From Thalassomonas actiniarum (GTDB lineage Bacteria; Pseudomonadota; Gammaproteobacteria; Enterobacterales; Alteromonadaceae), in contig NZ_CP059735.1 of NCBI RefSeq assembly GCF_000948975.2, forward strand, positions 4,422,603 through 4,462,602: DNA of 40,000 nucleotides, written 5' to 3'. A program made the translations under genes and the position numbers. Shown piece by piece: positions 10,785 through 20,560 of the stretch. A model generated the notes under the pieces. It saw only the letters and a program-made list of their open reading frames with translations, made no database searches and was not told the DNA's origin. Positions within the stretch are counted from its first letter, which is position 1; each line of letters opens with the position of its first letter.

Positions 10785-12713
10785 ATCGTGGTAGAGCGAC
10801 CTGTTACCAGGCCGACCCCACACAGATCCGGACGTGCGGAACTACCGCATCCGGCTCTTCAGTTATATATTCACTCGTGTAAAACACGACCCTAGTACCA
10901 ATCGACAATAACATTTCGACTACTGACTTTTGGTGACTCAATTTGAAAATATTCTAACATCTTCTTGAAACTGCTCCAATTATAACTTCTTCTGCCGCTA
11001 CGCCTGTTTAGCCATTTATATAAGCTATGCAGCACATAATTATATAAGCGTGACAAGCTACGACTGTTATCCGGTAAACCAAAGTAATTTCTAAACCCCG
11101 TTAATTTACGTTTTAGTTGCGGTAGCCATTCCCTCAATTTGATTGAACGTTTGGCTTTGATCCATTGGTAATATTCGCTCATCATCGCTTTCTGCTTCTT
11201 CGGAGCCGTGCGCCTTCTGAGCCTTCGTTTACCCTTGACATCAATCCCCCAATAAAATTCAAACCCAAGAAAAACAAAGTGGCGACTCTTACCAGGTTTA
11301 AATCGACTGAATGTCATCAGTGAGGTTTTCTCCGGTGCGATATCTAGATTGAATTTCTTTAGTCGTTTCGCAAGCACCCCATAAAAGCGCTCAGCATCAT
11401 GAGCAAATTGGAAGGCACAGACAAAATCATCCGCATAACGGATCATCATGGCTCTTCCCCGCATCCTCGGTTTTACTTTCTTCTCAAACCACAAATCCAA
11501 AGCATAATGCAGATAAATGTTCGCCAGTACAGGGCTGATAATACCTCCCTGCGGGCTACCGCTTGCAGGCTTTTCAAAGACCCCTTCCGGTGATTTTATC
11601 CGGGCTTTTAACCATTGGCTGATTAGCTTCAGTAAGGCTTTATCATCAATCCGTTGTTTGAGCATACGCAGCAACCAACCATGATCGAGATTGTCGAAGA
11701 AGCCTTTAATGTCCGCCTCGACAACATAACCATAACCTTTGAATTGAAGATTCAACGACAGGCTATGTACTGCCTGATGTGCACTTTTATTTGGTCGATA
11801 ACCATAACTGTTCACCAGGAAGTCTTGCTCCCAAATACTTTGCAGTATTTGGCTGACACTCTGTTGCACCAGTTTATCATCTACCGTTGGCAGGCCTAAT
11901 GGCCGTTGTTTGCCGTTAGACTTGGGAATAAAGATACGCTTAATGTCATTGGCTCGATAACATTTCTGCTTGAGCTGCTCACTTAAGCGCTTAATATTTT
12001 CTGGCAAGCTTTGCTGATAGTCATTAATGGTTACCCCATCAATACCTGGCGCAGCTTGTTTGTTGAGCTGACCCCAGCTTTGATACAGGCGGTCGCTACT
12101 TAGTAATCCGTATAAGTTTTGAAACCTGTGCTTGGGGTGGGTATATGCTTTAAATGCGATGATATTAAGTTCGGTTGTCATAGTGATCCCGGCCCTACTT
12201 TGTCCGGCCTATGTTTCTGCTTAATACCTGGTATAACTGTCAGCTCCTTCGCCATGTACAAGGCTTTCCCTTGCTCAGACTACTACGGGCTGATCTGACT
12301 TCCAAAGGGTCATCGTTCGTCTGACGGTTAGCTAGACTTTCCTACCACATCCTTATGGAACACCTTTGGATCTCTCAAGTTCCTGATACATCTCTTCATA
12401 CATGCCATGGCTTGATAACCCCGCTGACTCGCCGTAGCCTCACCTTTCGTTTGCTATGAATAACGGCTACTTTGCATGGACTTCGGTGGCGTTACAAACC
12501 TCGTCAGTCAGATGGTAATTCTCGGAGCGATACCAGCACTTCAGGGCCACGATAGCCCCTATGGCCTATATGATTCTCTGTGTACGCTTCACCTGTATTG
12601 TTCGTTTCAGTGAAACTCCGCCACAGGCGCAACACTCGATACTGGTGGCTGGTTAAGCCTTACCAGACAGGGACTTACACCCTGCAAGATGCATCAAGCT
12701 TTGCTTGACGCAC
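10785..12713 (-). mobile_element. Group II intron (class C-like, no endonuclease domain) inserted in the attC of cassette 10
   Basis: The 5' end is GTGCG at 12713-12709. Domain V is GAGCCGGATGCGGTAGTTCCGCACGTCCGGATCT (minus strand, 10857-10824; 34 nt; AGC triad). A domain VI-like helix has an A 8 nt from the 3' end ...CTACCACGAT (ends at 10785). The RT/maturase ORF sits in domain IV. Length 1929 nt. Confidence 0.88.
10892..12181 (-). CDS. Group II intron reverse transcriptase/maturase
   Basis: 429 aa. It contains APGIDGVT, the RT palm motif RYADDFV, and a C-terminal maturase (X) region rich in R/K/W/Y. I saw no HNH endonuclease tail. Confidence 0.92.
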   Translation of the reverse strand: MTTELNIIAFKAYTHPKHRFQNLYGLLSSDRLYQSWGQLNKQAAPGIDGVTINDYQQSLPENIKRLSEQLKQKCYRANDIKRIFIPKSNGKQRPLGLPTVDDKLVQQSVSQILQSIWEQDFLVNSYGYRPNKSAHQAVHSLSLNLQFKGYGYVVEADIKGFFDNLDHGWLLRMLKQRIDDKALLKLISQWLKARIKSPEGVFEKPASGSPQGGIISPVLANIYLHYALDLWFEKKVKPRMRGRAMMIRYADDFVCAFQFAHDAERFYGVLAKRLKKFNLDIAPEKTSLMTFSRFKPGKSRHFVFLGFEFYWGIDVKGKRRLRRRTAPKKQKAMMSEYYQWIKAKRSIKLREWLPQLKRKLTGFRNYFGLPDNSRSLSRLYNYVLHSLYKWLNRRSGRRSYNWSSFKKMLEYFQIESPKVSSRNVIVDWY

Positions 12714-12799
12714 TAACGCCTTACATAATAGGAAAATAATAACTGTTTAGGAGCGAAGCGACTAGTTATTATTTTTCCTTATTTATGAACTTGTTAGCT
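12714..12799 (-). repeat. attC of cassette 10 (its R' core is split by the intron)
   Basis: A near-twin of the attC at 16163-16251. R'' AGCTAAC is the exact complement of the cassette's own 5' GTTAGCT (13128-13122). The minus strand ends ...GGCGTTA, then the intron, and resumes TACAC at 10784. Confidence 0.85.
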
Positions 12800-13886: not shown

Positions 13887-13956
13887 AGCTAACGCTGCAA
13901 TAACCGGCGCGAGGTATGAGCGTCCGGCGCCGCAGGCGCGTAGTTAATTGCCTTGT
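13887..13956 (-). repeat. attC of cassette 8, main body (the R'' end continues at 15163-15172 on the other side of the IS)
   Basis: The plus strand reads agctaacgctgcaataaccggcgcg...cgcgtagttaattgcCTTGT, then the IS, then CTTGTtagtt. The restored R'' AACTAAC is the exact complement of the cassette's own 5' GTTAGTT (15486-15480). Confidence 0.85.
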
Positions 13957-14183
13957 ATGGATAATATCCCCCATATCTTAATATTCTTTTTAAACCTTTT
14001 CGGGTAGTGTGAGGCCCAAGCTTTGGCTGCAACCAAAGCCTTCTTATACAGCAGTTCGATGATTGCGTGGCTCCTCTGTTGAGAGACCGATAACAAGTGA
14101 GAACGCTGTATAGGACTCCAAGCATTAAACTCGGATAGTCAACTGGGCCTCGAGCCCGAATAGCAAGGCAGAGTCAGCTTATT
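13957..14183 (+). ncRNA. Candidate bridge/seek-type guide RNA region in the IS left arm
   Basis: A long non-coding arm upstream of the transposase gene. It contains a stem-loop GCTTTGG-ctgcaa-CCAAAGC (14020-14039). TAACAAGTGA at 14091-14100 is the exact reverse complement of the right-end/attC junction TCACTTGTTA (15160-15169). CAAGGCA at 14164-14170 complements TGCCTTG at the left junction. Confidence 0.4.
13960..13965 (+). promoter_or_regulatory. -10 half (GATAAT) of a promoter that forms only at the circle junction
   Basis: GATAAT lies 3 nt inside the left end. See the -35 entry at 15148-15153. Confidence 0.6.
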
Positions 14184-15137
14184 ATGAATAACAACAATAA
14201 TCAAAATGAAATTAACATCGGCGTTGATACTGGTAAAACACAACTCGATATTTACATACGCCCTTTAGACATCTATTTCACTGTTTCAAATGATGAGAAA
14301 GGTATCAATAAAGCCGTTAAAGAAATCAAAAAATACAATCCTACTCGCATCATCATTGAAGCAACGGGGCGACTGGAACAAGCATTTTGCATCGCCTGTG
14401 CGACAGAAAAATTACCTTTTGTTATCGCAAATCCAGCACACATTAAAAAATTTGCAGGAGCGATTGGTCGTCATGCTAAAACAGACAAACTCGATGCCCA
14501 ACTTATAGCTCATTATGGTGAAGCAATTAAGCCCAAATTGTCAGCATTAAAGCCGGAGACCATGCAATTAATGAGTGATTTACTTTCTAGGAGAAGACAG
14601 TTAATGACGATGCAAACTATGGAAAAAAATCGGCTTCAGATAATGCCAAAAAACATATCCAGCATCATCAAACCAATTTTAACAGCTATTAAAAACCAGC
14701 TCGATAAAATCGACCAAAAACTACTAAAACTGATGGATAGATGCGCTGAATATAAAGCTAAAAATGACATTATTCAAAGCATACCTGGCATAGGTAATGT
14801 GGTTGCATTTAACTTATTAAGCGACATGCCTGAATTGGGATATTTAACGAATAAACAAGCTTCATCCCTCATTGGTGTTGCGCCATTTAATAGAGAAAGT
14901 GGTATTTACCAGGGACAAAGAAATATACGCGGTGGTCGCCATAAAATCAGAACGGTTATGTACATGGCTATGATGTCCGCAATTCAGTGCAATCCTGTTT
15001 TTAAAGATACGTATCAGCGATTATTGGCCGCTGGAAAACCTAAAAAAACAGCAATAATTGCCTGCGTCAGAAAGATGATTGTTATCTTAAATTCGATGGT
15101 TAGAGATGGTGTCATGTGGGATCCTAAAATGAGTTAA
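14184..15137 (+). CDS. IS110-family (DEDD) transposase/recombinase
   Basis: 317 aa. Motifs: IGVDTGKTQLDIY, IIIEATGRLE, AKTDKLDAQLIA, and the C-terminal IPGIGNVVAFNLL. Confidence 0.92.
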   Translation: MNNNNNQNEINIGVDTGKTQLDIYIRPLDIYFTVSNDEKGINKAVKEIKKYNPTRIIIEATGRLEQAFCIACATEKLPFVIANPAHIKKFAGAIGRHAKTDKLDAQLIAHYGEAIKPKLSALKPETMQLMSDLLSRRRQLMTMQTMEKNRLQIMPKNISSIIKPILTAIKNQLDKIDQKLLKLMDRCAEYKAKNDIIQSIPGIGNVVAFNLLSDMPELGYLTNKQASSLIGVAPFNRESGIYQGQRNIRGGRHKIRTVMYMAMMSAIQCNPVFKDTYQRLLAAGKPKKTAIIACVRKMIVILNSMVRDGVMWDPKMS

Positions 15138-15147
15138 AAATTAGGAG

Positions 15148-15153
15148 TTGACA
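15148..15153 (+). promoter_or_regulatory. -35 half (TTGACA) of the circle-junction promoter
   Basis: Joining the right end to the left end gives TTGACA-ccatagtcacttgtatg (17 nt)-GATAAT, pointing into the left arm and the transposase gene. Confidence 0.6.
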
Positions 15154-15176
15154 CCATAGTCACTTGTTAGTTTACT

Positions 15177-15476
15177 TTACCTAAATTTGGCACCACATTT
15201 TTGACATGATTTAGGTCTGATTTCAACGCCTTCGCCACCTAACGCAAATGGAACTGTATTACACTTTGGGCATCTATAAAATAACCAAACACCAATATTA
15301 AAGACCAAAACGCCAAAAAGTGCGCCATAGAAAGGGTTAAACAATTCTAGATTAAAAGACTTAAGAATAAATCCACTTGCGAAGAGTGATACAGTTAAAA
15401 GCAATACAGTATAAAAGCGCTTTTGGACAGTTTTAAACTGCTCTGATACATCATCCATAATTGAGTAATACTCCAA
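15177..15476 (-). CDS. Cassette 8 small membrane protein with a C-terminal zinc-ribbon-like CxxC...CxxC
   Basis: 99 aa from TTG 15476 (alternative ATG at 15458). It has two TM helices and then YRCPKCNTV...CQKCGAKF. Confidence 0.5.
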   Translation of the reverse strand: MEYYSIMDDVSEQFKTVQKRFYTVLLLTVSLFASGFILKSFNLELFNPFYGALFGVLVFNIGVWLFYRCPKCNTVPFALGGEGVEIRPKSCQKCGAKFR

Positions 15477-15479
15477 GTA

Positions 15480-15536
15480 AACTAACGCCGCGCTCAGACG
15501 CCGCTTTCTGCGGTCGTCTGCAGCGCCTTGTTAGGC
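15480..15536 (-). repeat. attC of cassette 7 (short, 57 bp)
   Basis: The plus strand reads aactaacgccgcgctcagacgccgctttctgcggtcgtctgcagcgccttgttaggc. R'' GCCTAAC is the exact complement of the cassette's own 5' GTTAGGC (16169-16163). Confidence 0.85.
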
Positions 15537-16162: not shown

Positions 16163-16251
16163 GCCTAACGCCTTACATAATAGGAGAATAATAGCTGTTT
16201 AGGAGCAAAGCGACTAGCTATTATTTTTCCTTATTTATGAATTTGTTAGGA
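16163..16251 (-). repeat. attC of cassette 6 (uninterrupted twin of the intron-bearing attC)
   Basis: It has 5 internal differences from 12714-12799 plus a different base in the R'' box (the twin reads ...gttagct). The differences include a compensatory pair that preserves the stem. The plus strand reads gcctaacgccttacataataggagaataatagct...agctattatttttccttatttatgaatttgttagga. Confidence 0.85.
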
Positions 16252-17449: not shown

Positions 17450-17537
17450 GCCTAACGCTTGTGTATGAGGATTTTAATAAAAGCTTTGGCGCGTAGCGAC
17501 ATTTTATTAAAATTCCTGCATGACACACTTGTTACAT
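17450..17537 (-). repeat. attC of cassette 4
   Basis: The plus strand reads gcctaacgcttgtgtatgaggattttaataaaag...attttattaaaattcctgcatgacacacttgttacat. R'' ATGTAAC is the exact complement of the cassette's own 5' GTTACAT (18085-18079). Confidence 0.85.
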
Positions 17538-19042: not shown

Positions 19043-19111
19043 GCATAACGCATGCATTTGCGGAAAATTGGAGCGCAGCGGAAATTTTTCCGTAACATGC
19101 ACTTGTTATGT
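19043..19111 (-). repeat. attC of cassette 1
   Basis: The plus strand reads gcataacgcatgcatttgcggaaaatt...aatttttccgtaacatgcacttgttatgt. R'' ACATAAC is the exact complement of GTTATGT at the attI junction (19367-19361). Confidence 0.85.
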
Positions 19112-19558: not shown

Positions 19559-20560
19559 ATGAATATACAGCAATCATTAAGGGCAATATCAATGTCCCAA
19601 TCTCCATTCTTAGCCTATATCAACGAATTTATGATCACCCGCAGATATGCCAAAAGAACCATAGAAACATACCTCTACTGGGTGAAGAAATATATCCTTT
19701 TTCATAACAAAAAGCATCCTTCAACTTTAGGCGAGCATGATGTTGAGTATTTTTTAACTTACCTGTCAGCACAAAACAATGTTGCCCCCGGCACTCAAGC
19801 AATAGCCCTGAATGCCCTGGTATTTCTTTATAAAGAAATCATTCAAGCCCCGCTATCCTTAAACCTGGATTTCAATAAATCGTCACGTCAGGCAAAACTG
19901 CCTACGGTACTCACCCCGGAAGAAGTAAGCACCTTATTGAATGCGGTATCCGCACAATATTCTTTACCGGCTCAACTCATGTATGGCAATGGTTTACGGT
20001 TAATGGAAACCATAAGAATGCGAATTCAAGATATAGATTTTGATTATCTATGCCTGTTGATATGGCGTGGTAAAGGCAATAAACACCGCAGGGTGACCTT
20101 AGCTAAAGAACTGGTTGAACCGCTCAAGCATCAAATAGCCAGCTGCAAAAAATATTACGGCATAGATATGAAAAATAAAGATTACCTTGGGGTGTGGTTA
20201 CCTCATGCACTGGCAAAAAAGTATCCCGCAGCACCGAAAGAGTTAGGTTGGCATTATTTATTTCCCTCTGCCCGCTTGAGTCGGGATCCTCATGCCAATA
20301 ACGCACTCAGGCGTCATCATATTGATGAAAGCTGTTTACAAAAAGCCGTGAAGCATGCAGCAAAACAAGCAAGAATAACGAAAAATGTCAGTTGTCATAC
20401 GTTACGTCATAGCTTTGCAACCCATTTATTACAACGTGGTTGTGACATTCGCACCGTACAAGAACAATTGGGACATATCGATGTCCGCACCACTCAAATT
20501 TATACCCATGTCATTCAGGCCGGAGCCGATGGGGTGCGTAGCCCGTTAAGTGATTTATAA
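19559..20560 (+). CDS. intI: Integron integrase IntI (tyrosine recombinase)
   Basis: 333 aa, similar along its length to my recollection of Vibrio cholerae IntIA. Shared segments include RYAKRTIETYLYWVKKYILFHNKKHPS, GLRLMETIRMRIQDIDFDY, the IntI-specific insertion LPHALAKKYPAAPKELGWHYLFPS, HTLRHSFATHLL and GHIDVRTTQIYTHV (catalytic Tyr). The R-K-H-R-H-Y residues are all present. A later start (MSQSPF, 19592) is possible. Confidence 0.94.
   Translation: MNIQQSLRAISMSQSPFLAYINEFMITRRYAKRTIETYLYWVKKYILFHNKKHPSTLGEHDVEYFLTYLSAQNNVAPGTQAIALNALVFLYKEIIQAPLSLNLDFNKSSRQAKLPTVLTPEEVSTLLNAVSAQYSLPAQLMYGNGLRLMETIRMRIQDIDFDYLCLLIWRGKGNKHRRVTLAKELVEPLKHQIASCKKYYGIDMKNKDYLGVWLPHALAKKYPAAPKELGWHYLFPSARLSRDPHANNALRRHHIDESCLQKAVKHAAKQARITKNVSCHTLRHSFATHLLQRGCDIRTVQEQLGHIDVRTTQIYTHVIQAGADGVRSPLSDL

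What the first reader, a model, noticed from the sequence alone, without database searches (positions are those of the whole stretch)
13887..15175. IS110-family element inside an attC: the ends would form a consensus promoter on circularisation, and the 5' arm holds a guide-like copy of the attC junction
**Insertion site**
- A DEDD/IS110-type transposase gene (14184-15137, + strand) runs opposite to the cassettes.
- The attC of cassette 8 is cut. Its body ends ...aattgcCTTGT (13956) and resumes CTTGTtagtt at 15163.
- Deleting 13957-15162 plus one CTTGT restores ccttgttagtt. That R'' (AACTAAC) is the exact complement of cassette 8's own 5' end.
- So the insertion lies within or adjacent to the R'' box.

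**Circle-junction promoter**
- Joining the right end to the left end gives TTGACA (15148-15153), 17 nt, GATAAT (13960-13965).
- This is a near-ideal sigma70 promoter that exists only in a circle, and it points into the left arm and the transposase gene.

**Guide-like sequences**
- The non-coding arms are very asymmetric: 227 nt upstream and 25 nt downstream.
- TAACAAGTGA at 14091-14100 is the exact reverse complement of TCACTTGTTA at 15160-15169. That target is 3 nt of right end, then CTTGT, then 2 nt of attC.
- CACTTGTTA also ends two other attCs in this array (17526-17534 and 19100-19108).
- A weaker 7-mer, CAAGGCA (14164-14170), complements TGCCTTG at the left junction.

**Interpretation**
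- IS110/IS1111 elements are known to use circle-junction promoters and an IS-encoded bridge/seek RNA with target and donor guides.
- An attC-targeting IS1111 subgroup is also known.
- Here the sequence suggests an RNA-programmed recombinase whose guide is set to the conserved integron R'' box. That would let it hop between cassettes.
- The 10-mer could instead be the classical subterminal inverted repeat of this family.
Basis: partly seen in the sequence, partly recalled or inferred. Interest (0 to 1): 0.85.

Follow-up and report, generated by a model that had tools for sequence, protein, structure and literature searches.

The report
IS492-like bridge-RNA insertion sequence in attC
This is an intact IS110-family (IS492-like) insertion sequence sitting in an integron attC site, and the "guide-like" repeats are the expected target and donor guides of its bridge RNA, so it is a clean new example of a known mechanism rather than a new one.

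Summary
Every sequence fact in the finding checks out. The element (13957-15162 plus one CTTGT) is an intact IS110-family insertion sequence. Its recombinase is 69% identical to the IS492 transposase and keeps the catalytic residues of IS621. It splits a 67-nt attC in a 13-cassette integron array; the protein is 100% identical to a Thalassomonas actiniarum entry.

The 227-nt left arm has the published bridge-RNA fold. In 47 relatives, 99.1% of cells are paired and 18 pairs show compensatory changes.

It reads as right-target guide (TAACAAG) plus handshake guide (TGA).
- The 7-mer sits in the second loop. It reads as donor-guide core plus handshake guide.
The left-target guide (14060-14068) copies the attC left flank and varies with each relative's flank. 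The left-donor guide (14135-14144) copies the right end.
- The circle-junction promoter is conserved in 52 of 53 relatives.

Corrections: this is the IS110/IS492 type, not IS1111-attC. Only the occupied attC fits the left guide well, so free hopping between cassettes is unlikely.

Most testable relatives also sit in attC sites. That clade-level habit appears undescribed and is the only modestly new point. No transcript or circle was tested.

The parts
13891..13956 (-). Left (R'-proximal) part of the interrupted attC. It includes the target-derived CTTGT copy at 13952-13956. The left target, TAATTGC, lies at 13945-13951.
   Evidence: With the IS removed, the 67-nt site folds with TAAC paired to GTTA, like the other 12 attCs of the array. 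The sequence was read.
13957..15162 (+). IS110-family (IS492-like) insertion sequence, 1,206 bp plus one copy of CTTGT. It is oriented opposite to the cassettes.
   Evidence: The recombinase is 69% identical to the IS492 transposase. Relatives are collinear end to end.
13960..13965 (+). -10 hexamer GATAAT of the circle-junction promoter.
   Evidence: GATAAT is present in 51 of 53 relatives, with a 17-nt spacer in 52 of 53.
14003..14039 (+). 5' stem-loops of the bridge RNA: SL1 at 14003-14016 and SL2 at 14020-14039.
   Evidence: RNAalifold consensus of 47 relatives. SL2 has 5 pairs with compensatory changes.
14043..14114 (+). Target-binding loop module. It has an outer stem (14043-14057 with 14101-14114), an inner stem-loop (14069-14088) and an internal loop on both sides.
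   Evidence: 10 of the 13 outer-stem pairs show compensatory changes. Overall 99.1% of cells are paired, against at most 41% when the partners are slid.
14060..14068 (+). Left-target guide TGATTGC(GT). It has the same sense as the attC left flank TAATTGC(CT) at 13945-13953, with one rG-dT wobble.
   Evidence: This block is hypervariable in relatives and copies each locus's own left flank. The mean longest shared string is 5.76 nt, against 3.57 +/- 0.15 nt in 2,000 permutations. The excess matches fall on a diagonal.
14091..14097 (+). Right-target guide plus core guide, TAACAAG. It is the reverse complement of CTTGTTA (core CT plus right target TGTTA).
   Evidence: It matches the right junction in every relative that has a CTTGTTA-type junction. 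Four variants covary: ACAAA with TTTGT, ACCAG with CTGGT, ATAAG with CTTAT, and AGAAG with CTTCT. It aligns with the IS621 right-target guide GUAG.
14098..14100 (+). Handshake guide of the target-binding loop, TGA. It is complementary to the donor right end TCA at 15160-15162.
   Evidence: It aligns with the IS621 handshake guide AU at positions 81-82. Its first base pairs with the donor's last base in 32 of 45 relatives, and with the cognate target base in only 6 of 45.
14129..14174 (+). Donor-binding loop module. It has an outer stem ACTC/GAGT, an inner stem 14145-14157 and an internal loop on both sides.
   Evidence: It aligns with the IS621 donor-binding loop, sharing the motif CCGTATTTGCAAGG with relatives.
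14135..14144 (+). Left-donor guide ATAGTCA-A-CT. It has the same sense as the right end ATAGTCA (15156-15162) plus the core CT.
   Evidence: It covaries with the right end. ATAGTCA goes with ..AGTCA ends and ATAGTCT with ..AGTCT ends.
14158..14170 (+). Right-donor guide, in which GCAAG (14163-14167) pairs with CTTGT. It is followed by the handshake guide GCA (14168-14170), which is complementary to the target left flank TGC.
   Evidence: GCAAA goes with TTTGT in L058, and GCAAT goes with a left junction ATTGT in L062. The first handshake base pairs with the target's last base in 23 of 45 relatives, and with the cognate donor base in 1 of 45.
14184..15137 (+). Bridge recombinase (DEDD RuvC-like domain plus Tnp domain), 317 aa.
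   Evidence: It matches the solved IS621 and ISCro4 transposases at E = 2e-22. D15, E59, D101, D104 and S239 align with IS621 D11, E60, D102, D105 and S241.
15148..15153 (+). -35 hexamer TTGACA of the circle-junction promoter.
   Evidence: TTGAC[AG] is present in 51 of 53 relatives.
15163..15172 (-). Right copy of CTTGT plus TAGTT. This is the R'' box of the interrupted attC, AACTAAC on the cassette strand.

Best explanation
This is an intact IS110-family insertion sequence of the IS492 lineage. It inserted by bridge-RNA-guided site-specific recombination into the R''/L'' junction of an integron attC.

**Inferred cycle, by homology with IS621**
1. Excision joins the right end to the left end. 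This builds the promoter TTGACA-17 nt-GATAAT.
2. The promoter transcribes a bridge RNA of about 200 nt from the left arm, and probably the recombinase mRNA as well.
3. The RNA folds into two stem-loops, each with an internal loop.
4. The first loop reads the target. [quoted passage not shown] 5. The second loop reads the circle junction. ATAGTCA..CT pairs with the right end, and GCAAG pairs with CTTGT at the start of the left end.
6. After top-strand exchange at the CT core, the handshake guides TGA and GCA pair with the partner DNA and drive the reaction towards insertion.

**Shown here:** the protein family and catalytic residues, the RNA fold with covariation, guide-to-flank and guide-to-end covariation across relatives, and conservation of the promoter.

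**Inferred:** transcription, circle formation, the exact cleavage positions and present-day activity.
For: **Protein**
- The recombinase is homologous to the solved IS621 and ISCro4 bridge recombinases, and all five catalytic residues align.
- It is 69% identical to the IS492 transposase listed in Durrant et al. 2024, Supplementary Table 5.

**RNA**
- The consensus fold of 47 relatives has 99.1% of cells paired.
- 18 pairs show compensatory changes, and 0 of 500 shuffles reach the observed values.
- Slid controls reach at most 41% paired.

**Guides**
- The left-target guide tracks each locus's own left flank, 5.76 nt against 3.57 +/- 0.15 nt. The excess matches form a diagonal.
- The right-target guide covaries with four core variants.
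- The left-donor guide covaries with the right end.
- The handshake bases pair with the non-cognate partner far more often than with the cognate one: 32 against 6, and 23 against 1, of 45. This is the published IS621 pattern.
- The IS621 donor ACAGTAT-CT-TGTAT shares CTTGTAT with this element's ATAGTCA-CT-TGTAT. The two RNAs align at the guide and handshake positions.

**Promoter and literature**
- The promoter halves and the 17-nt spacing are conserved in 52 of 53 relatives.
- Members of this clade, with (C/T)TTGTTA targets, are already in the published covariation data set.
Against: - Nothing was tested experimentally: no transcript, no circle junction and no transposition.
- Only one cluster member and one contig carry this exact protein, so current activity is unknown.
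- The left-target guide has a G where the core has C (14067).
- The register of the left-target guide slips by one position among relatives.
- Donor-loop handshake complementarity is not significant per insertion in a permutation test, because the guide is nearly constant within a lineage.
- No Rfam family matched the left arm at E up to 10, so the fold is supported only by my own alignment and by comparison with the IS621 sequence.
- The right-donor guide pairs only discontiguously, and I could not define it base by base.
Confidence: 0.9

Rival explanations
1. The 10-mer is a protein-binding subterminal inverted repeat, as in IS1111-group elements. On this reading it is not an RNA guide.
For: It seeds the longest inverted repeat that involves the right terminus (I1). 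IS1111-group elements do carry subterminal inverted repeats.
Against: - The left copy lies 135 nt inside the element, not near the end.
- It lies in the 3' side of an internal loop of a covarying RNA fold.
- Its first 7 nt complement the target rather than the element. They covary with core variants of the junction.
- The non-coding region is upstream of the gene, which is the IS110 type said to lack such repeats.
Confidence: 0.03
2. The element recognises the folded attC hairpin as a structure, as integron integrases and group IIC-attC introns do. On this reading the sequence matches are secondary.
For: Most relatives sit in attC hairpins. IS621 and other family members also favour palindromic REP targets.
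Against: - Several relatives sit at CTTGTTA sites with no attC-like hairpin, for example L003, L034 and L053.
- The guide blocks covary with the linear sequence of flank and core.
- The solved IS621 complexes bind duplex DNA through RNA-DNA pairing.
- A contribution of structure to efficiency is not excluded.
Confidence: 0.05
3. The copy is a stranded, effectively immobile element. Full handshake complementarity to both integrated junctions, and an orientation against cassette transcription, keep it locked in place.
For: - Both handshake guides pair perfectly with the integrated junctions. For IS621 that configuration favours insertion and lowers excision.
- No promoter above chance level feeds the left arm in the linear state.
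- Only one cluster member and one contig carry this protein.
Against: The ORF, the catalytic residues, the guides and both promoter halves are intact. IS621 still excises at a low rate in the same configuration. This is a statement about rate, not a different identity.
Confidence: 0.3

Closest known systems
IS492 of Pseudoalteromonas atlantica (IS110 family, MooV transposase)
   Same: - The recombinase is 69% identical over 306 aligned residues.
- The long non-coding region lies in the left end; the supplement labels IS492 'LE' and group IS110.
- IS492 is recorded with an adjacent duplication.
- From my own knowledge (Higgins et al. 2009, J Bacteriol 191:6408, and Perkins-Balding et al. 1999, neither held in the library): a 7-bp target 5'-CTTGTTA-3', a 5-bp CTTGT repeat, a length of about 1.2 kb, and a circle junction that forms a strong promoter.
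   Different: It is a different IS by sequence. The best database relatives are 86% (same genome) and 85% identical. It sits in an integron attC, whereas, from memory, the classical IS492 site is in the eps locus. Its left-target guide is specific to this attC.
IS621 of E. coli, the reference bridge-RNA recombinase
   Same: - It has the same protein fold family and the same catalytic residues.
- It has the same RNA plan: 5' stem-loop, then a target loop, then a donor loop.
- Both donors contain CTTGTAT around a CT core.
- The handshake logic is the same.
- It has the same kind of circle-junction promoter.
- Both show an rG-dT wobble in the left-target guide.
   Different: - Protein similarity is only distant (E = 2e-22).
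- The right-target guide is longer, with 7 contiguous nt pairing with CTTGTTA.
- The handshake complement is 3 nt rather than 2.
- Because the right donor and right target both begin with TGT, the apparent duplication is 5 bp rather than 2 bp.
- The target is an attC rather than a REP sequence.
IS1111-attC group (ISPa21, ISPst6, ISKpn4, ISPa25)
   Same: It targets integron attC sites near their 5' (R''/L'') end and is oriented against cassette transcription. It is an RNA-guided DEDD recombinase.
   Different: - In that group the non-coding region and seekRNA lie downstream of the gene, and the ends carry subterminal inverted repeats. Here the non-coding region lies upstream, and no such repeats exist.
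- When the shared TTGTTAG is aligned, their marked insertion points (AA*CG / AG*CG) lie about 10 nt upstream of ours by my reading. This element inserts within CTTGT|TAG.
Group IIC-attC introns
   Same: They are another mobile element class specialised on attC sites and oriented against the cassettes.
   Different: They are retroelements with a ribozyme and a reverse transcriptase, so the mechanism is unrelated. The window holds one group II intron, but it lies in the cassette orientation.

Membership tests
IS110 family, IS110 group (bridge-RNA elements such as IS621 and IS492) | DEDD RuvC-like domain plus a Tnp domain with a catalytic serine | tested here: met
   Pfam PF01548 and PF02371 match. 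NCBIfam NF033542 scores 197 bits against a cut-off of 140. D15, E59, D101, D104 and S239 align with IS621 D11, E60, D102, D105 and S241.
IS110 family, IS110 group (bridge-RNA elements such as IS621 and IS492) | Long non-coding region upstream of the recombinase gene and a short right end | tested here: met
   227 nt lie upstream and 25 nt downstream.
IS110 family, IS110 group (bridge-RNA elements such as IS621 and IS492) | [quoted passage not shown] | tested here: met
   The consensus of 47 relatives has 99.1% of cells paired and 18 compensatory pairs. 0 of 500 shuffles reach the observed values, and slid controls reach at most 41%.
IS110 family, IS110 group (bridge-RNA elements such as IS621 and IS492) | The first loop covaries with the target flanks and the second loop with the element ends | tested here: met
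   Left-target guide against left flank. Right-target guide against core variants. Left-donor guide against right end.
IS110 family, IS110 group (bridge-RNA elements such as IS621 and IS492) | Handshake guides complementary to the non-cognate DNA | tested here: met
   32 of 45 against 6 of 45 for the target loop, and 23 of 45 against 1 of 45 for the donor loop. In the window copy all 3 nt pair in each loop.
IS110 family, IS110 group (bridge-RNA elements such as IS621 and IS492) | A promoter is reconstituted across the RE-LE junction of the circle | tested here: met
   The sequence TTGACA-17-GATAAT is present and conserved in 52 of 53 relatives. Promoter activity itself cannot be tested with these tools.
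IS110 family, IS110 group (bridge-RNA elements such as IS621 and IS492) | The RNA is transcribed, binds the recombinase and is required for recombination | not testable with these tools
   This needs RNA-seq, pull-down and recombination assays.
IS492 lineage | Target 5'-CTTGTTA-3' with a CTTGT repeat at both junctions | tested here: met
   CTTGT is present on both sides and is followed by TA. The same holds in nearly all of the 80 relatives. That this is the IS492 target is from my own memory of Higgins et al. 2009. One search confirms only that IS492 is recorded with an adjacent duplication.
IS492 lineage | Close similarity to the IS492 transposase | tested here: met
   69% identity and 85% positives over 306 aligned residues, E = 1e-160. 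The IS492 sequence was taken from an alignment row in a supplement, so a few residues may be missing.
IS1111-attC group | Non-coding region and seekRNA downstream of the transposase gene | tested here: not met
   Only 25 nt lie downstream.
IS1111-attC group | Subterminal inverted repeats | tested here: not met
   No inverted repeat joins the first and last 30 nt of the element.
IS1111-attC group | Insertion at the AA*CG / AG*CG point marked in the tabulated targets, inside the L'' arm of attC | tested here: not met
   The insertion here falls within CTTGT|TAG, at the R'' box. When the shared TTGTTAG is aligned, the marked ISKpn4, ISPst6 and ISPa25 points lie about 10 nt upstream by my reading.

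The most novel reading that the evidence does not exclude
The IS492 clade of IS110-type bridge-RNA elements would be a second, independent lineage of attC specialists in marine Gammaproteobacteria, convergent with IS1111-attC elements and group IIC-attC introns.

The division of labour would be:
- an invariant right-target guide anchored on the conserved R''/L'' junction, (C/T)TTGTTA;
- a fast-evolving left-target guide that tracks the attC sequences of each host's integron.

Target pairs from this clade are already in published data sets. I found no paper in the held library that describes IS110-type elements as attC-targeting. One Shewanella survey saw IS110 elements in integrons but reported none interrupting attC sites.
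Probability: 0.45. Interest if true: 0.45.

Novelty: new member of a known kind. Interest (0 to 1): 0.3.

Why it matters
The copy is a fully readable natural example of the bridge-RNA mechanism. All four guides and both handshake guides can be assigned from sequence alone, and both integrated junctions are intact. It could serve as a test case for annotation pipelines.

Splitting R'' from the rest of the attC should disable that recombination site. That would fuse two cassettes into one unit and affect how the array can be reshuffled.

If the clade-level preference for attC holds, it adds a third class of mobile element that parasitises integron recombination sites. It would also give a natural series of left-target guides, each tuned to a different attC family. 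That series would be useful for studying how bridge-RNA specificity evolves.

None of this changes the known mechanism.

Tried and rejected
- **Rfam.** No family matched the left arm, at gathering thresholds or at E up to 10. There appears to be no bridge-RNA model in the copy searched, so this says nothing against the fold.
- **Exact-protein look-ups.** Look-ups for the window protein, P0001 and P0002 found no contig on record. I could not examine other copies in the source genome.
- **Papers not held.** The primary IS492 papers and Tetu & Holmes 2008 are not in the library. Searches for CTTGTTA or CTTGT together with IS492 gave nothing relevant. The IS492 target is therefore cited from memory.
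- **Donor-loop handshake test.** A permutation test against the left flank was not significant, 2.38 against 2.35 matches of 4. The guide is almost constant within a lineage. The comparison of cognate and non-cognate pairing was more informative.
- **Repeat search in L081.** A direct-repeat search for an attC array in Vibrio sp. THAF190c found only a second IS copy. The attCs there are too diverse for exact seeds.
- **attC covariance model.** I considered building one to score the relatives' flanks. I dropped the idea because the hairpin tests already answered the question.
- **Rejected ideas.**
  - The two other CACTTGTTA attCs are not preferred targets.
  - The 10-mer is not a subterminal inverted repeat.
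  - The whole CTTGT is not the core. Comparison with IS621 points to a CT core, with TGT shared by the right donor and the right target.
Full report
**1. The observation**

- The ORF 14184-15137 (+) encodes a 317-aa protein with the two Pfam domains of IS110-family transposases.
- The protein passes the NCBIfam model 'IS110 family RNA-guided transposase' at 197 bits, against a cut-off of 140.
- CTTGT flanks the element on both sides.
- Removing 13957-15162 and one CTTGT restores a 67-nt imperfect palindrome bounded by TAAC and GTTA. It folds like the other attCs of the array.
- The R'' side, GTTAGTTTACTT, is the reverse complement of the cassette's own 5' end at 15475-15486.
- The junction TTGACA-17 nt-GATAAT exists only in a circle. 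In the integrated copy the -35 position reads CGCGTA.
- Promoter-like hits inside the linear element are no more frequent than chance.

**2. Context**

The window holds a chromosomal integron.
- The integrase gene lies at 19559-20560 (+) and matches TIGR02249 at 453 bits.
- Thirteen attCs lie between about 9,420 and 19,110. On the + strand, most begin with TAACG and all end with (C/T)TTGTTA.
- The cassette ORFs run on the - strand, so the IS is antisense to them.
- The recombinase is 100% identical to a protein of Thalassomonas actiniarum (Colwelliaceae), found on a 6.56-Mb contig. A second type, 86% identical, occurs in the same genome.

**3. What the element is**

- The protein is homologous to the solved bridge recombinases IS621 and ISCro4 (E = 2e-22).
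- D15, E59, D101, D104 and S239 align with the IS621 catalytic residues D11, E60, D102, D105 and S241.
- It is 69% identical to the IS492 transposase given in Durrant et al. 2024, Supplementary Table 5. That table labels IS492 as IS110 group with its non-coding RNA in the left end.
- The long non-coding region lies upstream, which marks the IS110 type. In IS1111 elements it lies downstream.
- No terminal or subterminal inverted repeats join the ends.

**4. The RNA**

I collected 80 relatives, 66-84% identical in protein, from marine Gammaproteobacteria and a few other genomes. I aligned 47 distinct left arms.
- The consensus fold has two 5' stem-loops followed by two stem-loops with large internal loops. 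This is the architecture described for IS110 bridge RNAs.
- On this alignment 99.1% of cells are paired and 18 pairs show compensatory changes.
- No shuffle out of 500 reaches the observed values for four of the five measures, and 1 of 500 does for the fifth. Sliding the partners drops pairing to 41% or less.
- Rfam has no matching family.

**5. The guides**

The published rules are as follows.
- The left guides have the same sense as the top strand of the left target or left donor plus the core.
- The right guides are the reverse complement of the core plus the right target or right donor.
- Two handshake bases lie 3' of each right guide. They pair with the other DNA after top-strand exchange.

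Mapped onto window coordinates, the guides are:

| Guide | Coordinates | Sequence | Pairs with |
|---|---|---|---|
| Left-target guide | 14060-14068 | TGATTGCGT | attC flank TAATTGC+CT (one rG-dT wobble, one core mismatch) |
| Right-target guide | 14091-14097 | TAACAAG | CTTGTTA |
| Target-loop handshake | 14098-14100 | TGA | right end TCA |
| Left-donor guide | 14135-14144 | ATAGTCA-A-CT | right end ATAGTCA+CT |
| Right-donor guide core | 14163-14167 | GCAAG | CTTGT |
| Donor-loop handshake | 14168-14170 | GCA | target flank TGC |

The 7-mer is donor-guide core plus handshake guide.

The IS621 wild-type RNA and its donor ACAGTAT-CT-TGTAT align with these positions. GUAG+AU falls on CAAG+TG, and GCAAG+GU falls on GCAAG+GC. 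This suggests that the true core is CT. The 5-bp 'duplication' would then arise because the right donor (TGTATGG) and the right target (TGTTA) both start with TGT.

**6. Covariation with DNA**

- **Left-target guide.** This block is the most variable part of the RNA, and it copies each locus's own left flank. Examples are L018 TTAATTGC, L026 ACGAGCGC, L052 TTAAATGCT and L006 ACATTGCTT. The mean longest shared string is 5.76 nt, against 3.57 +/- 0.15 nt when flanks are permuted. The excess matches form a diagonal.
- **Right-target guide.** It is nearly invariant, and it changes together with the junction in four variants.
- **Left-donor guide.** It follows the last base of the right end, A or T.
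- **Handshake bases.** They pair with the non-cognate partner in 32 of 45 and 23 of 45 relatives. They pair with the cognate partner in only 6 and 1. This is the configuration that favours insertion in IS621.
- **Extension of the 10-mer.** The full 3-nt extension seen in the window occurs in only eight elements in all: the window copy and seven relatives. Only the first 7-8 nt are a general feature.
- **Core position 1.** In 10 loci the left copy of the 5-mer starts with A or T while the right copy starts with C. The right-target guide follows the right copy in 45 of 45 loci and the right-donor guide in 44 of 45. The first position therefore tolerates target mismatches.

**7. Promoter**

TTGAC[AG] in the right end, a 17-nt spacer and GATAAT in the left end are conserved in 51-52 of 53 relatives. 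This fits the promoter reconstituted on circles in this family.

**8. Target choice**

- All 13 attCs of the array carry the right-target sequence.
- The occupied one fits the left-target guide at 7 of 9 positions. The others fit at 5 or fewer.
- The two attCs ending CACTTGTTA fit the left guide poorly. Their CA would pair with the handshake guide before exchange, which inhibits IS621.

The element is tuned to attCs, but not to any attC.

**9. Relatives are mostly in attCs too**

- When the empty sites of relatives are restored, 23 of 51 fold with GTTA paired to a TAAC 41-128 nt upstream, without any constraint.
- Constrained hairpin energies have a median of -30.5 kcal/mol, against -18.8 in controls.
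- TAACG lies 40-140 nt upstream in 32 of 54 relatives, against 34 of 378 control windows.
- 23 sites are textbook 61-101-nt attCs.
- The Pseudoalteromonas copy on pPBSW1 sits in such a site among small antisense ORFs.
- Some copies are not in attC-like hairpins, for example L003, L034 and L053.
- Pairs from this clade with (C/T)TTGTTA targets, several with Vibrio attC-like left flanks, are already in the published covariation input. The paper's text mentions attC only in its reference list.
- I found no paper in the held library that describes IS110-type elements as attC-targeting.
- A Shewanella survey saw IS110 elements in integrons but reported none interrupting attC.

**10. Comparison with known attC-targeting elements**

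- IS1111-attC elements share the orientation and the preference for the 5' end of attC.
- They differ in RNA position and in having subterminal repeats.
- When the shared TTGTTAG is aligned, their marked insertion points lie about 10 nt upstream of this element's by my reading.

**11. Verdict**

The element is an ordinary, well-preserved member of the IS110/IS492 bridge-RNA family, so the mechanism is already known. The modestly new point is that much of this clade sits in integron attC sites, with a variable left-target guide matched to local attC sequences. No experiment was possible, so transcription, circle formation and current activity remain inferred.

Noticed in passing
window 10892-12677 (- strand), next to the attC at 12715-12797: A group II intron: Rfam RF02005 at 12409-12677 with 86.7 bits, and a reverse transcriptase/maturase ORF at 10892-12181 matching TIGR04416 at 374 bits. 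It lies just downstream of an intact attC and in the same orientation as the cassettes. Published group IIC-attC introns sit in the bottom strand, opposite to the cassettes.
   Followed up: partly
window 12715-12797 and 16167-16249: Two 81-nt attC sites are nearly identical, while the other attCs of the array differ widely. This may mark related or duplicated cassettes.
   Followed up: no
L030:1277-1310 (Methylococcales MAG): The start of the left end is partly duplicated in tandem, ATGGATAATAAACCATTGT|ATGGATAATAAA. This copy also has a CTGGTTA right junction that mismatches its own guide.
   Followed up: no
L011 (Marinomonas MAG) and L041 (Vibrio), right junctions: In both loci the right end is followed by the same non-attC sequence, CTTAT GTGGACTCCC, although the hosts belong to different genera. 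L011 also has a divergent donor-loop region.
   Followed up: no
L064 and L080, right junctions: The right end is followed by CTTGC ATGG..., which resembles the start of a left end rather than a CTTGTTA target. This could be a remnant of a tandem or nested insertion.
   Followed up: no
L082:12228-17974 (Pseudoalteromonas sp. Bsw20308 plasmid pPBSW1): Three different IS110-family transposase genes, spanning 957, 1,155 and 1,269 nt, lie within 6 kb among small ORFs on the opposite strand. The region looks like a cassette array.
   Followed up: no
L018 and L019 (Pseudocolwellia sp. HL-MZ7 chromosome), and L081:4087-4386 with 11968-12267: Two copies of the same IS lie 5.8 kb apart, each in its own attC. 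In Vibrio sp. THAF190c two copies lie 7.9 kb apart.
   Followed up: partly
L002:2106-2684 (Psychromonas MAG): A stretch 33% identical to the window's integron integrase lies about 900 nt to the right of the IS and on the same strand. This is the same relative arrangement as in the window.
   Followed up: no
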